Of a stretch of DNA of 64,000 nt, positions 11,652 to 33,664 are shown piece after piece. The stretch comes from Octopus vulgaris (taxonomy: Eukaryota), in assembly GCA_951406725.2 (NCBI GenBank), contig OX597830.1, forward strand, positions 4,154,001-4,218,000, in the 5' to 3' direction. The notes beneath the pieces were generated by a model. That model saw only the letters and a list, made by a program, of their open reading frames with translations, was not told where the DNA came from and ran no database searches. Position numbers and translations under genes: made by a program. The number at the start of each line of letters is the position of its first letter. The first letter of the stretch is position 1.

Positions 11652-11684
<33 letters not shown>

Positions 11685-11713
11685 CAAAAGAAAAACATGA
11701 TGCAAAGGATTTA

Positions 11714-11801
11714 GTGGTACATATGTTTCTGGCCTTTATTAGACAGTTTATATCAATGCATAATTGATGTAATATGTATGTCAATAGCCTTCTTCAGCCG
11801 T
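11714..11801 (-). ncRNA. Type I hammerhead ribozyme motif (inverted copy)
   Basis: Reverse complement reads cggCTGAAGA-aggc...gcca-GAAAC-atat-GTA-ccac; stem I is weakened relative to the plus copy. Confidence 0.55.
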
Positions 11802-12069
11802 GCACAATTACTACGTCAAGGACATGTATTACATTATAAGTTCGGGCGATTTACGTTGGGGATGCAAATCCTCATAGTCGTGTACAACAGAGCGAGGCAC
11901 CAAAATAAAAACAAACATTCTACATCGAGTGAAAAACGGGATGGACGCTTTGTTTTTGTTTTGGTGCCTCGCTCTGTTGTACACAACTATGAGGATTTGC
12001 ATTCCCAAAGTAAATCGTCTTTTTACCAAACTTATAATGTAATACATGTCCTTGGAGTAGTAATTGTGT

Positions 12070-12157
12070 GTGGCTGAAGAAGGCTACTGACATACATATT
12101 ACATCAATTATGCATTGATATAAACTGTCTAATAAAGGCCAGAAACATATGTACCAC
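12070..12157 (+). ncRNA. Type I hammerhead ribozyme motif with long stem II
   Basis: gtgg-CTGAAGA-[61 nt: ggc/gcc, gaca/tgtc, atcaat/attgat]-GAAAC-atat-GTA-ccac; palindromic stem III acatatgt; predicted cleavage after 12153. Confidence 0.7.
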
Positions 12158-12355
12158 TAAATCCTTTGCATCATGTTTTTATTTTGATAAATATACCCTA
12201 TCACCTACACCACTAACTGGCATATACAAGTGCTTACAATTATCAAGTATTCACCCTGAAATTTTATATATATATATATATATATCTTGGTATAGTAACT
12301 ACTAGCATTGCAATCTTTTTTATGATTAACCCTTGTTTATGAGCATAAATTGACA

Positions 12356-12755
12356 TGTCTGAGTGGCAAGAAGCTTGCTTCCCAACCGCATAGTTCTGTG
12401 TTCAGTCTCACTGTGTGACAGCTTGGGCAATTGTCTTCTATAACCCTGGGCCAACCAGAGCTTTGTGAGTGGATTTCATAGATGGAAACTGAAAGAAGCC
12501 CTTTGTATGTAAATATGTGTGTGTGTATGTGTGTTTGTCTTTATGGGGGTGTTTTTTTCCCACCACCACTTGACGACAGGTATTGGTGTGTTTACATCCC
12601 CATAACTTTGCAGTTTGGCAAAAGACTGATAAAATAAGTGCTAGGCTTTTAAAAAACATAATTTCTGGGGTCAATTCATTCAACTAAAAGTCTTCAAGGT
12701 GGTACTCCAGCATGGCCATTGTCTAATGATTAAAGCAAATAACAGATAAAAGATA
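12356..12755 (+). mobile_element. tRNA-derived SINE family 1 (octopus OK/OR-like)
   Basis: gttctgtgttcagtc B-box, gatggaaactgaaagaagccc core, ggtactccagcatggcc 3' part; homologous to 40418-40835. Confidence 0.75.
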
Positions 12756-13444
12756 ATTGGAGGAAATGTTTTCTGAGATAATAATCCATGTCAGCTTACC
12801 AAATCTCGATGTATCTACAAACCCCTTTGAAGTCTAACTTAGGGGTTTGTGTGAGGGCTCAGAGTCCTAATTCATTTATCTTCTCCTCATTTGCTTTGCA
12901 AACTAAATGCAATCTAATGTTCATATCCAGTTTCATGAGGCATCCACACACACACACACACACACACATTGTCTGTCTGTCTCTCTCTCTCTCTCTTTGT
13001 CTTTCTGATACACATATTCACATGAGCTCATACAAAACAATTTTAATTCATATAAATGATATTCTTAATCCCTAAGGCATGCACAGTGACAGAACTGGCA
13101 GCCAGCGTTCTGACTTTATGGTAACTGAAACACAAATGGAAACAAGAGACATCAACAACAGCAGATGAATACGAAAACACCTGGCACAAGTTGCCTCAGA
13201 GGCCTTACCAATGTTTTGCTTACTGTTCACCTTCTCTCAAAGACTATTGAACTCAAGATGGTCGTTTTGTGACATACTGCAATTACAGTTGTTTGCATCA
13301 TTTACAGCAAAATCAGAAACTATTAGCAGACATATTCTTAACATGTCTAGTTAGGCTCAGGTGCAAAATGTGCTGAGCACTGTTGTGTATGTCTCAGGAG
13401 AATAACTTTTCTCTTTTAGCTGTTAGACAACTATCTATATACAT

Positions 13445-13466
13445 TATACATACATACATACATACA

Positions 13467-13533
<67 letters not shown>
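13445..13533. repeat. (TACA)n-(TA)n compound microsatellite
   Basis: Direct reading. Confidence 0.95.
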
Positions 13534-13542
<9 letters not shown>

Positions 13543-13761
13543 TAAAATTAAAGGTAACTGGACTTCAAGTTACACCTTTCAGCTGGAGAGTGGACGTAAC
13601 TTGAAGAACCAGTCCAGCAGATCTTTACAATAAATTTTACTCCAGTCTTAGCATAGTCACCTCAACAGTAAATACTTAGTTTACCTTACATTGCCTTAAC
13701 ATATCTCTCTCTCCCTCTCCTCCATGTATGTGTGTGTGTGTATACATATATATATACATGT

Positions 13762-30445: not shown

Positions 30446-30488
30446 GTACCAAAAAGAGACCCAGAATGGGTCAAAACATTAGTCGTAC
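30446..30488 (+). ncRNA. Degenerate (probably inactive) type I hammerhead relic
   Basis: gtac-caaaaaga-gaccc(agaat)gggtc-aAAAC-atta-GTC-gtac: all three stems present, core mutated. Confidence 0.45.
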
Positions 30489-30525
30489 CTAATAAAATAT
30501 TTTACTCATTCCATCTATTTTATTA

Positions 30526-30567
<42 letters not shown>

Positions 30568-30686
30568 CATTACAGATATAGGGTAAAGAATTATTAATTT
30601 AATAAATTAATAAATTTACCAAGTAGTTTCGGTATGGAAAAGAGCCATATTCGGTAAAAACTTATACAAAAAGTTTTTTATATAAT

Positions 30687-30798
30687 TATAACAATAATTA
30701 AGGGTTTAGCAACAAGTTGCTTCACCACATACCGAAAATTTAGAAATTTTCGGTATGTGGTGAAGCAGCTTGTTGCTAAGCCCTTAATTATTGTTATA
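30687..30798. repeat. Near-perfect palindrome, 55-bp arms, 2-nt loop
   Basis: tataacaataattaagggtttagc...accgaaaattt-ag-aaattttcggt...gcccttaattattgttata; 2 mismatches. Confidence 0.95.
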
Positions 30799-30800
30799 TA

Positions 30801-31050
30801 TATATATAAAATTAGAAAAAAAAACACTTTTTATCAATTCAAAATGAACAATTAAATTACACCATCTAGAAAATTACATATAATAGAAAATTATATACGT
30901 TTTTATTATTATTTCTGCAATTTACTTAATCTTTACATTTTATTGTTATTTTAATTTTAACTTTTCTATTATATGTAATTTTCTAGATGGTGTAATTTAA
31001 TTGTTCATTTTGAATTGATAAAAAGTGTTTTTTTTCTAATTTTATATATA
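30801..31050. repeat. Inverted repeat, arms about 90 bp, spacer about 70 nt
   Basis: 30801-30890 is the reverse complement of 30962-31050. Confidence 0.95.
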
Positions 31051-31477
31051 TATATTATATTGTGTGAAATTTGATTTAGTATTTCTAAATTGAATTTTTT
31101 TTTTCCTTGTAAGTTTGGATTTTATTCCCTCAAATAATAAATGTATATATATACATGTACATATATAAATCAGGAAAAATCAGGAGGTATGTGAGAGGTG
31201 GATATATTTATTTAACCACTTGATATCTATAAGATTATGGCATTATACTCCTCAGAAAGGGATTACTCTGTGGTATGACAGCCGGGTACACCGAAGAAGG
31301 TGTTCATGATAGTCACGGGATTCTAGGGATCCATCTATTACACTGCATATTCATGTATGTGTATGTGTGTACATGTGTATATGTATATATATATATATGT
31401 TTGTGTGTATGTGTGTGTGTATTTTATATGTATATGTATGTATATATATGTGTATATATGAATATGTGTATGAATAT

Positions 31478-32108
31478 ATCATCATTTAACGTCCACTCTC
31501 CATGCTGGCATGGGTTAGATGGTTTGACTGGAGCTGATGAGCTGCACCAGGTTCCAGTCTGATTTGGCATGGTTTCTACAGCTGCATGCCTTTCCTAATG
31601 CCAACCACTCCAGGTGTGCAACAGGTGCTTTTATGTGCCAATGGCACAGGTGTGATTTACGTGGTACCATCAACGACCACAACTACAATGCCCAGGTGTC
31701 ATTTACATGACACCAGCAATGACCACAGCTATGATGCATGGCTGCCATTCACATGATCACCACTACCTTTTCCTTTGGCTTGGCAATTCTTCTCATACTC
31801 AGCATATCGCCAGAAGTCTCAGTCACTTGTCATCCCACCAAGAGACCCAATATCTGAAGATTATGTTCCAACACCTCCTTCCATGTCTTCCTAGGTCTAC
31901 CTCTAGCACAGTTTCCCCCCACAGTTAGAGATTAGCACTTCTTTACACAGCTGTCCTCATCCATCTGTATCACATGACCATACCAACGCAGTTGTCTCTC
32001 TTGTACACCATATCTGATTCTTCTTGTGCCCAGCTTTTCTTTCAAGACACTTACACTCTGTTGTACATGCACACTGACATTGTACATCCAGCAAAACACA
32101 CCAGCTTC
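31478..32108 (-). mobile_element. 5'-truncated RTE LINE
   Basis: catcatttaacgtcc tail at left; 31870-32108 is the reverse of the RCGVQERQLRWYGHV...RGRPRKTW region. Confidence 0.85.
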
Positions 32109-32168
32109 ATATATATATATATATATGCATAAGAATGTGCATTGTCCGTTTAATTAAAAAGTTCTATA

Positions 32169-32256
32169 TGTGGCTGAAGATTGCTCGACATTTTAAAACT
32201 GATGTAATACTTACAGTGTTTAATAAAATAAAGTAGCATGAAACAATTGTATTACA
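32169..32256 (+). ncRNA. Type I hammerhead ribozyme motif with long stem II
   Basis: tgtgg-CTGAAGA-[59 nt: tgct/agca, tgtaa/ttaca]-GAAAC-aatt-GTA-ttaca inside a (TA)n-flanked insert at 32126-32290. Confidence 0.7.
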
Positions 32257-33664
32257 CTACCTTGGCTATCCTTGTTGCCTATTTTGATTATGCATATAAA
32301 TGTATATGCATATATATACATACATGCATATATATATATATATATTACTATTTCAAAACAGGTCAACATTAGATGTCCCAATATGAAGATCTTTTATGTT
32401 CTAGAATTTCTGTGAATGAAGAAAAATTTGTGGTAAACAGAACATATTTGATAGTCATTCTAACAGTATATTGCGAGTCTTCATTAGTCAAGCTATGAAT
32501 ATTATCTCGAGATAAATAATAAAACATTAATAAATTGCTATGTAAGATGTGTTTGTGTTAAACAAAAGGACAGGAGAATAGAGTTTTGAGCGCAATGTAT
32601 CTGAAATCTGATAAAAACCATAAAATCAGACCAATAATGTAAGAGTAATTCATAGAACTCTTCTAGCTTGATAAACGGCAATCGAATAAAGCAGCAAAGT
32701 GCAGGAACTCATAGTCATCAAAACTATAATGAAAAAGTCCAAATAAATTTACAAGTTTGAGCGAATAAATTAAAATAACATAGAAAGAAGAATAAATCTA
32801 TGTAAATGTGTTTGACCTTCCACTATGTTCCCCTCCTCTCTTTCATATTTTTCACTAAATCTTTTTTTCTTTTTTTCACCCTCATCAATTTTCTCTGTCT
32901 GCAGCAAAATTGATAGATATAGTTCATGAGGATGATTTTTTGCATAATAATCTTTAGTTGTATGTCTCCTTGTTTGTTTATTTTATAACTTACAAGACAG
33001 ACACAATATTAAAATCAATTCATTGAAAAAAAAAAAAAAAAATTATTGTTTCTAAATTGATTGAAAGATGAATTCCATTAGAAAAAGAAAATGACAGAAC
33101 ATTATTTCTTTGGTATTGGAAGAAAAGATGAGTGTAACATCTTTTTAGACGGTCTTCATTAGAAGTCTTTCTTGCAGAAAATATTCAATAAATATGAGCT
33201 GATCCTTTCTATAATGGAGAATGATAATATTTTTTCCTGTATTTTGTAGATTGTGAATAATGCAAAATGTATTACTAATAAACACAATTACAAATTACTT
33301 TATATGTTTGTTAATTATTGAATTTCCAGTATCTTTAATTAAATTTCAGTAGGTAGTGTAATGATGAAGCAAAAAGTATAATTCTGTAATGTGAAATGAA
33401 GAATTAGCTAATGTATTTCCATAAAATTCTTTAATTTAAGTCTGTTTTTCAATGTTTCCATGAGCTGGGTGAGACTTCAACATTGCATCTTGGCACTTGT
33501 CAAGGTCTGTCATCATCCTCTTTGTTAGGTTCACCATCCTCAACTCTTCTTCCAATATTTTCTTTCATATTCTTCTTGTGCAGCCAACTCTTATTATTCT
33601 ATGTCTGAAAGAAAGATAATTTTCATATCAGTATATATCATCATCTTAATAATAATAATAATAA

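What the first reader, a model, noticed from the sequence alone, without database searches (positions are those of the whole stretch)
11682..32290. Candidate system: multiple families of (TA)n-targeting, hammerhead-ribozyme-bearing short retroelements
Seen: at least five separate inserts flanked by (TA)n (11682-12265, 24481-24643, 26717-26870, 30379-30532, 32126-32290, plus a fragment at 58457) contain type I hammerhead topology, stem I-CUGANGA-like-stem II-GAAA-short or palindromic stem III-UH-stem I. I did not notice such motifs outside (TA)n-flanked blocks, but that was an eye scan. Established: Penelope-like elements (PLEs) and retrozymes carry minimal type I HHRs with palindromic or absent helix III that cleave as dimers, and PLE insertions often have inverted pLTR copies. 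Inference: this genome hosts a diverse population of self-cleaving, microsatellite-targeting PLE or retrozyme derivatives, including atypical-core variants.
Basis: partly seen in the sequence, partly recalled or inferred. Interest (0 to 1): 0.85.

Follow-up and report, generated by a model that had tools for sequence, protein, structure and literature searches.

The report
Penelope retroelement ends with variant hammerheads
The inserts are truncated tail ends of several Penelope-like jumping-gene families that land in TA repeats, a known kind of element, but two of the families carry a predicted self-cutting RNA with core letters I did not find reported in nature, and cutting is untested.

Summary
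Real and mostly known. All five inserts are members of high-copy repeat families in this 2.8-Gb animal genome and carry type I hammerhead (HHR) topology at family level; two window copies (24481, 30379) are decayed. A relaxed scan found 30 HHRs in 600 kb of evenly chosen genome against 0-2 in shuffles. The families are 5'-truncated 3' ends of Penelope-like elements (PLEs): two alternative 3' ends ('tail'), inverted arms, TA at 235 of 340 3' junctions (background 3.7%), and linked GIY-YIG ORFs (Hydra clade for 11682, 30379 and a sister of 32126; Neptune/Nematis type for 26717; none found for 24481). They are not tandem retrozymes. PLE minimal HHRs and (TA)n targeting, including in Octopus, are published. 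Not found in print: a family-wide G3:C8 core, an A6U core fixed across subfamilies while N7 varies, and a helix II extended to 50-60 nt. The '58457 fragment' is two pieces; one is a truncated copy of a rewired (SGC-like) hammerhead. The scan noted the G3:C8 and rewired forms before on other DNA of this genome. Cleavage is untested; no copy starts at the predicted cut site.

The parts
11657..11684 (.). (TA)n tract at the left junction of insert E1
11676..11915 (-). E1 left arm: inverted, 5'-truncated copy of a Hydra-clade PLE 3' end, short 3' end without tail; HHR at 11714-11801 with stem I weakened to 2 pairs
11916..12260 (+). E1 right arm: Hydra-clade PLE 3' end with ~66-nt tail; intact canonical type I HHR at 12070-12157 (core CUGAAGA 12074-12080, extended helix II, 8-nt palindromic helix III, predicted cut after 12153)
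12265..12285 (.). (TA)n tract at the right junction of E1
24481..24621 (-). E2: PLE-like 3' end without tail; HHR at 24561-24611, family core G3:C8 (GUGAACA); this copy has U4A and a broken stem II. No ORF link found
24622..24643 (+). E2: inverted fragment of the family's tail end, so both outer ends of the insert are element 3' ends facing TA tracts (24415-24479, 24644-24669)
26717..26870 (+). E3: 5'-truncated 3' end of a Neptune/Nematis-type PLE; compact HHR at 26744-26779 with lineage-fixed A6U core (CUGUAGA), extra A at 9/10.1, predicted cut after 26775
30379..30528 (+). E4: 5'-truncated 3' end of an older, likely Hydra-clade PLE; family core mostly CCGAAGA (U4C); this copy (30446-30488) has lost both core boxes
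32127..32291 (+). E5: PLE 3' end without tail; canonical core at 32174-32180, U.U at 10.1/11.1 as in Hydra-clade HHRs, extended helix II, 8-nt palindromic helix III, predicted cut after 32251
58457..58527 (-). 3' half of a diverged E3-lineage HHR end (lacks CUGANGA; GAAA decayed)
58528..58707 (+). 5'-truncated copy of a family whose full copies hold a rewired (SGC-order, pseudoknotted) hammerhead; the window keeps only the GAAA and CUGAUGA blocks

Best explanation
The inserts are 5'-truncated 3' ends of at least five Penelope-like retrotransposon families inserted at TA repeats, each carrying the pseudo-LTR hammerhead, which is predicted to cut only as a dimer or with help from the element's protein. 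Shown: repeat families, HHR topology, two fixed 3' ends per family, inverted arms, TA at the junctions, and GIY-YIG ORFs upstream in longer copies. Inferred from the in vitro work on the anole PLE (PMC11167929): the RT-endonuclease nicks AT-rich DNA on both strands, reverse transcription starts inside the RNA at one of two sites 40-165 nt downstream of the hammerhead, stops early to give 150-600 bp inserts, and priming on the second strand gives the inverted arm. Because most copies run through an intact HHR and none starts at the cut site, the templates were likely uncut or religated at that site. The variant cores (G3:C8, A6U, U4C) likely give slow ribozymes that the element tolerates.
For: High-copy families at 82-98% identity. 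Two 3' end peaks relative to the cut site: E1 +40-44 (30 of 71) and +105-109; E2 +85-94 (17 of 55) and +140-149; E4 +45-54 (11 of 35) and +160-169; E5 +40-44 (29 of 63) and +125-139; E3 one peak at +95 (73 of 116). TA within 12 nt of the 3' end in 235 of 340 copies against 3.7% background; in the unbiased 600 kb, 11 of 20 against 1.9%. E1: a copy of the window's subfamily runs 2.7 kb upstream into a CxCX5C/GIY-YIG endonuclease (L291); 18 of 20 loci picked by that protein have an E1-like HHR end (70-81% identity) downstream, several behind intact 842-aa ORFs, L333 as pLTR-ORF-pLTR. E3: L352 and L358 run contiguously into a GIY-YIG domain (L352 with the CX4CxxC linker; Pfam PF01541 E 8e-4), with open frames up to 1047 aa among its relatives. 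E4: one locus joins it to a Hydra-type EN C-terminus (L298). E5: a sister subfamily lies 2.1 kb behind a Hydra-type EN (L224). Covariation in the E5 group: 23 two-sided changes, 0 of 500 shuffles. Homodimer MFE is the double hammerhead for E1, E4, E5.
Against: No ORF link for E2; for E5 only through a sister subfamily; E4 and the window's own E1 subfamily rest on one degenerate locus each. Covariation in the E3 group is weak (3 two-sided cells, 86 of 500 shuffles reach it). Monomer folding z-scores are mostly unremarkable (9 of 12 above -1.9), and the predicted homodimer is not the double hammerhead for E2 and E3. None of 76 incidental copies starts within 3 nt of the predicted cut site. TA is found at only 41 of 233 5' alignment ends, and at 22 of 55 E2 3' ends.
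Confidence: 0.88

Rival explanations
1. The elements are PLE ends, but the variant hammerheads (A6U in E3, G3:C8 in E2, U4C in E4) no longer cut; the fold survives as a protein-binding or RT-positioning structure, or by descent from a mutated master copy.
For: HHR mutants did not impair insertion in vitro and no RNA-seq ends mapped to the cut site in the anole PLE (PMC11167929). A6C and U4C lower activity (PMC3088659). E2 is a single young family with no sister seen, so its core may be one founder event. No 5' starts at the cut site.
Against: G3:C8 needs two changes that restore the 3-8 pair and partly rescues cleavage (PMC11167929). In the E3 lineage U6 is kept in 56 of 56 pattern-matched CUUU-stem copies while N7 takes A, U, C, G and position 17 takes A or U, and the other core positions stay conserved among copies with 78-90% flank identity.
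Confidence: 0.4
2. The inserts are non-autonomous retrozymes that spread as small circular RNAs.
For: The genome has tandem HHR arrays of about 355-bp period (L231). One E5 sister subfamily is a fixed inverted-arm unit around a non-PLE middle (L340, L371, L372). E2 has no ORF link.
Against: None of the window inserts is a tandem repeat; 5' ends are scattered; E1, E3, E4 extend into endonuclease ORFs.
Confidence: 0.1
3. The TA association comes from microsatellites growing at element ends or from the abundance of TA repeats, not from endonuclease targeting.
For: TA repeats are common (9% of random positions have (TA)6 within 150 nt); 5' junctions show TA less often (41 of 233).
Against: Both alternative 3' ends of each family, with different terminal sequences, abut TA; elements nest in each other's TA tracts (L219); full-length L214 has TA on both sides; (TA)n preference is listed for Hydra and Naiad PLEs, Octopus included (PMC8557442 S1).
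Confidence: 0.12

Closest known systems
Minimal type I hammerheads in pLTRs of metazoan PLEs (Cervera and de la Pena 2014, PMC4209133; text parts 1-2 of 4 read, supplement file 2 searched)
   Same: Type I order, 4-5 bp stem I, extra base between 9 and 10.1, G10.1-C11.1, palindromic helix III, many solo truncated copies, close inverted pairs, natural 3-8 covariation.
   Different: They report U3-A8 and no G3:C8 or A6U in the parts read; helix II 7-8 bp with short loop, against 50-60 nt between the core boxes in E1 and E5.
Hydra-clade PLEs (Craig et al. 2021, PMC8557442; section 11, passages and supplement part 2 read)
   Same: C-terminal EN with CxCX5C linker, CxxC and CxH motifs, DKT motif, no CCHH, (TA)n insertion, HHR with U.U flanking stem II as in E5; an Octopus family is listed.
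   Different: Listed Hydra HHRs have 3-9 nt loop II and elements under 3 kb; here the 3' UTRs reach 1.5-2.7 kb and helix II is long. None of six motif strings from these families was found in their supplement.
Anole Poseidon PLE in vitro system (Frangieh et al. 2024, PMC11167929; parts 1-2 of 4 read)
   Same: Two internal RT start sites giving a tail, both strands nicked in AT-rich DNA, uncut RNA as template; engineered C3G/G8C partly active.
   Different: Tails here are 60-115 nt, not 30-40; G3:C8 is the natural family state in E2.
Metazoan non-LTR retrozymes (bioRxiv 10.64898/2026.07.22.740005, part 1 of 5 read; PMC7229834 seen as search listing only)
   Same: Type I HHR, proposed PLE origin.
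   Different: Retrozymes are tandem, non-coding repeats; the window inserts are solo truncated ends of coding elements.
Type-SGC hammerheads (Eckert et al. 2023, PMC10085705; passages read)
   Same: Block order site-GAAA-CUGANGA in the family of 58528-58707.
   Different: Here the partner of the pre-GAAA strand lies upstream of the cleavage block in three unrelated families, and the host is animal genomic DNA; applies only to the fragment outside the main coordinates.

Membership tests
Penelope-like elements (EN+) | RT plus GIY-YIG endonuclease ORF upstream of the 3' pLTR | tested here: met
   E1, E3, E4 (one locus), E5 sister
Penelope-like elements (EN+) | ORF link for family E2 (24481) | tested here: inconclusive
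   No ORF within 9 kb upstream of 3 longer copies; upstream runs into microsatellite
Penelope-like elements (EN+) | 5' truncation, inverted 5' arm, optional tail (two 3' ends) | tested here: met
   E3 shows one 3' end only
Penelope-like elements (EN+) | pLTR-ORF-pLTR partial tandem in full-length copies | tested here: met
   L333, L335 for the E1 sister subfamily; not seen for E2-E5
Hydra clade | CxCX5C linker, CxxC and CxH in EN, no CCHH, DKT motif, RWK motif | tested here: met
   842-aa ORF of L335 shows DKT, CxCX5C, CxxC, CxH; RWK reads RWA (features). No tree was built.
Neptune or Nematis clade (E3) | CX2-5CxxC linker and CCHH motif, C-terminal EN; clade placement by RT phylogeny | tested here: inconclusive
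   Motifs present; Neptune versus Nematis not separated, no reference tree
Type I hammerhead ribozyme | Three-stem topology with core C3-A9, G12-A14, A15.1-U16.1, H17 | tested here: met
   E1 and E5 canonical core
Type I hammerhead ribozyme | Canonical CUGANGA in E2, E3, E4 | tested here: not met
   G3:C8, U6, mostly C4; topology and other core positions kept
Type I hammerhead ribozyme | Stem covariation | tested here: inconclusive
   Met for the E5 group, one stem II pair between E1 subfamilies, weak for E3, not testable for E2 and E4 (single families)
Type I hammerhead ribozyme | Site-specific self-cleavage | not testable with these tools
   needs transcription assays
Non-LTR retrozyme | Tandem non-coding monomers each with an HHR | tested here: not met
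   no such array at the inserts; coding upstream
Type-SGC hammerhead (58528-58707 family) | Block order S-G-C with stems I, II, III as pseudoknots | tested here: inconclusive
   Order and stems I and III met with covariation; stem II partner lies upstream rather than after CUGANGA; window copy truncated

The most novel reading that the evidence does not exclude
PLE hammerheads in this genome have left the textbook core while staying functional: a natural G3:C8 family, a lineage of tens of thousands of copies with U at the supposedly invariant A6, U4C and U3:A8 families, helix II stretched to 50-60 nt, and a rewired permutation all coexist, because dimerisation and the PLE protein relax the core. 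The genome would be a natural mutagenesis library of some 100,000 hammerheads, and A6U a new natural active core.
Probability: 0.33. Interest if true: 0.66.

Novelty: new variant of a known kind. Interest (0 to 1): 0.43.

Why it matters
The role of the PLE hammerhead is open: it is nearly universal in canonical PLEs, yet slow and dispensable for insertion in vitro. Young, autonomous families that differ in the catalytic core (canonical, G3:C8, A6U, U4C, U3:A8) in one genome, several with intact ORFs, allow a direct test of whether selection acts on cleavage or on the fold. Standard descriptors and Rfam miss these forms, so hammerhead counts in animal genomes are likely underestimates.

Tried and rejected
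Rfam scan: only microsatellite-driven miRNA matches among the 150 rows shown. Strict HHR descriptor: 0 hits, because it disallowed the extra 9/10.1 base and long helix II. Six-frame ORFs of the window: no PLE protein; only LINE-like RT remnants. Pfam GIY-YIG search of the genome gave Neptune-type PLEs with their own U3:A8 or U4C hammerheads, not E1-E5; the E5-like pair in L219 is a separate insert in that element's TA tail, so I rejected it as an ORF link, as I did L040 (E2) and L143 (E5). Naiad origin of E1/E5 (suggested by 'HHR_half_core') was rejected: the linked EN is C-terminal and Hydra-type. A 240-base look downstream of an 826-aa E3-type frame did not hit the HHR, so U6 behind an intact ORF is unverified. 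PDB sequence search with the 842-aa ORF: no match. Literature: searches for hammerhead+A6U, hammerhead+C3G+G8C+natural, G3-C8/C3-G8, octopus+hammerhead+Penelope and core variants since 2017 showed no natural G3:C8 or A6U hammerhead in listings or passages read; Lunse et al. 2017 (about 150,000 PLE-linked variants, recalled) is not held and may contain them, as may supplement file 1 of PMC4209133, which could not be searched.
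Full report
Setting. The window is G000:C17:4154001-4218000 of a 2.8-Gb assembly, 28-45% GC and rich in microsatellites. Size, chromosome-scale contigs and an earlier scan note (e1-9566308) point to an octopus; this is inference. The window holds no PLE ORF.

Observation. Rfam shows no hammerhead among 150 listed of 169 matches and a strict descriptor finds none. 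With an extra base allowed beside stem II and up to 110 nt between the core boxes, E1, E3 and E5 are found, plus one probable chance hit. Each insert has at least 40 scored genomic matches out of 494-2025 candidates. Family readings: E1, stem I GYGG/CCRC, core CUGAAGA, 61 nt to GAAA, palindrome ACAUAUGU, cut after A. E2 (minus strand), 7-bp stem I, core GUGAACA in 28 of 30 best loci, 5-bp stem II, palindrome AAUAUU; this is a C3G/G8C swap that keeps the 3-8 pair; the window copy has lost U4 and part of stem II (37 of 41 readable hits in all loci, overlaps not removed). E3, core CUGUAGA (A6U) in 28 of 30 best loci, one CCGUAGA and one CUGAAGA with a mutated stem II. E4, an older family (82-89%): by eye about 12 of 30 CCGAAGA, 7 CUGA, 3 CCAAAGA, the pattern expected from CpG decay of a CCG master (U4C); the window copy has lost both boxes. 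E5, core CUGAAGA, U.U next to stem II, 59 nt to GAAA, palindrome ACAAUUGU.

Chance. In 60 stretches of 10 kb taken at round coordinates, the relaxed scan found 30 motifs, against 1, 0, 2, 0, 1, 1 in six local dinucleotide shuffles. Seven of the 30 are one tandem array. This extrapolates to roughly 100,000-140,000 intact-looking motifs. BLAST of E1-E5 on the same sample gave 20 hits, 13 of them E3-like, i.e. about 60,000 E3-lineage copies.

TA association. 11 of those 20 hits have (TA)4 within 20 nt downstream, against 1.9% of control positions. Over all loci held, 235 of 340 copies have TA within 12 nt of the 3' end (E1 53/71, E2 22/55, E3 79/116, E4 26/35, E5 55/63), background 3.7%; 5' alignment ends show TA in 41 of 233, though many of those are inversion junctions or alignment breaks. 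The bias is strong but not exclusive.

PLE anatomy. Four families have two sharp 3' ends 60-115 nt apart; E3 has one. In the window, E1 is an inverted pair whose left arm lacks and right arm has the tail, and E2 ends in an inverted piece of its own tail. These are the tail and inversion signatures described in PMC8557442 and explained by two internal RT start sites in PMC11167929. Walking upstream: an E1 copy (L291) runs through a 2.7-kb low-complexity UTR into a broken endonuclease with CxCX5C linker. That protein has 16,322 candidates; of 20 loci fetched, 18 have an E1-like end downstream (70-81% identity), L334 has it only upstream and L324 not at all; several carry 842-aa open frames, L333 with the HHR on both sides. 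The protein has the Hydra-clade marks of PMC8557442 section 11 and aligns with a Neptune-type RT from the same genome (E 1e-8). E3 copies L352 and L358 continue into a GIY-YIG domain with CCHH motif, L352 also showing the CX4CxxC linker and RT thumb, contiguous with L341, L351, L369; relatives number 17,143 candidates with frames up to 1047 aa. E4 shares its upstream end with a decayed Hydra-type EN in one locus. An E5 sister subfamily (76-81%) lies behind a Hydra-type EN in L224, and E5's U.U-flanked stem II matches the Hydra HHR table of PMC8557442 S2. E2 could not be linked. So the inserts are truncated ends of coding elements, not retrozymes.

Is the fold selected? E5 group (16 sequences): 23 cells with two-sided change, 0 of 500 shuffles, in stems I, II and III; the 'long loop II' is a bulged extension of helix II; relatedness inflates this control. 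E1: stem II GGCU/AGCC versus GGCC/GGCC between subfamilies with 51 or 61 nt spacing; GUGG/CCAC versus GCGG/CCGC may be CpG decay. E3 group (21 sequences): stems conserved, little covariation (86 of 500). Its interest is position 6: U in 56 of 56 pattern-matched copies with the CUUU stem, A in 12 of 12 with the GUUU stem, while N7 is A, U, C or G in the U6 lineage; in the alignment 17 U, 2 C, 2 A. Monomer folding is mostly not better than shuffles. Two-copy folding gives the double hammerhead for E1, E4, E5 but not E2, E3. None of 76 incidental copies starts within 3 nt of the cut site, in line with uncut RNA being the main template in vitro.

The 58457 fragment. 58457-58527 is the minus-strand 3' half of an E3-lineage end. 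58528-58707 belongs to another family. I had noted its odd pairings; earlier scan notes led me to read it as a non-circular permutation. My scan then found the order cut site - GAAA - CUGANGA with stems I and III in three sequence-unrelated families, each with the stem II partner upstream; in this family 21 cells covary, 0 of 500 shuffles, three of five stem III pairs. The window copy lacks the cut-site block. I did not test the Naiad link those notes claim.

Comparison and novelty. Minimal palindromic HHRs with an extra 9/10.1 base and U3-A8 covariation in PLE pLTRs are in PMC4209133. (TA)n preference of Hydra and Naiad PLEs, with Octopus families, is in PMC8557442. U4C, A6C and U10.1-U11.1 natural variants are in PMC3088659. 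G3:C8 is known as an engineered partial rescue. I found no natural G3:C8 or A6U in searches, but Lunse et al. 2017 was not available. The scan has already noted G3:C8 elsewhere in this genome. Verdict: a known system; new variants of its ribozyme; cleavage untested. Interest 0.43.

Noticed in passing
window 58528-58707; full copies L304:9234-9343, L344, L260, L277: Rewired SGC-order hammerhead in three unrelated repeat families, stem II partner upstream of the cut-site block, strong stem III covariation; noted before by the scan on other DNA.
   Followed up: partly
L214 (G000:C6:133342700-133352699); also L211-L218: Young intact Neptune-type PLE with a 479-aa ORF1 overlapping a 781-aa RT-EN frame, pLTR on both sides, TA on both flanks, hammerhead with U3:A8 core; 16 of the 150 scored GIY-YIG matches have the 781-aa frame.
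   Followed up: partly
L340, L371, L372: E5 sister subfamily spreads as a fixed unit: two inverted HHR arms around about 650 bp of decayed non-PLE coding-like sequence, same junction in three copies, outer ends with or without tail. A non-autonomous, two-headed PLE derivative.
   Followed up: partly
L231:3082-4512 and opposite strand: Tandem array of about 355-bp units, each with a canonical type I hammerhead: a true non-LTR retrozyme candidate.
   Followed up: no
L222, L226: Autonomous PLE family with a U4C (CCGAAGA) core 500 nt behind its ORF.
   Followed up: no
L232, L248, L276, L335, L339, L298: Many further hammerheads with 30-76 nt helix II and 8-12 nt palindromic helix III; one lies behind a Hydra-type ORF (L298).
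   Followed up: partly
window 30567-31060: TA-flanked nested inverted repeats right after E4; pieces match the 3' region of a PLE in L227 and flanks of other HHR families; no intact core found.
   Followed up: partly
window 18850-19049 and 19778-19977: 200-nt inverted arms, 89% complementary, 728 nt apart.
   Followed up: no
window 21079-21728 and 59010-60913: Decayed LINE-like reverse transcriptase frames (RTE-like by eye).
   Followed up: no
window 22208-22526, 33830-34140: GC-rich tandem arrays of 44-nt and 61-nt units inside SINE-like repeats.
   Followed up: no
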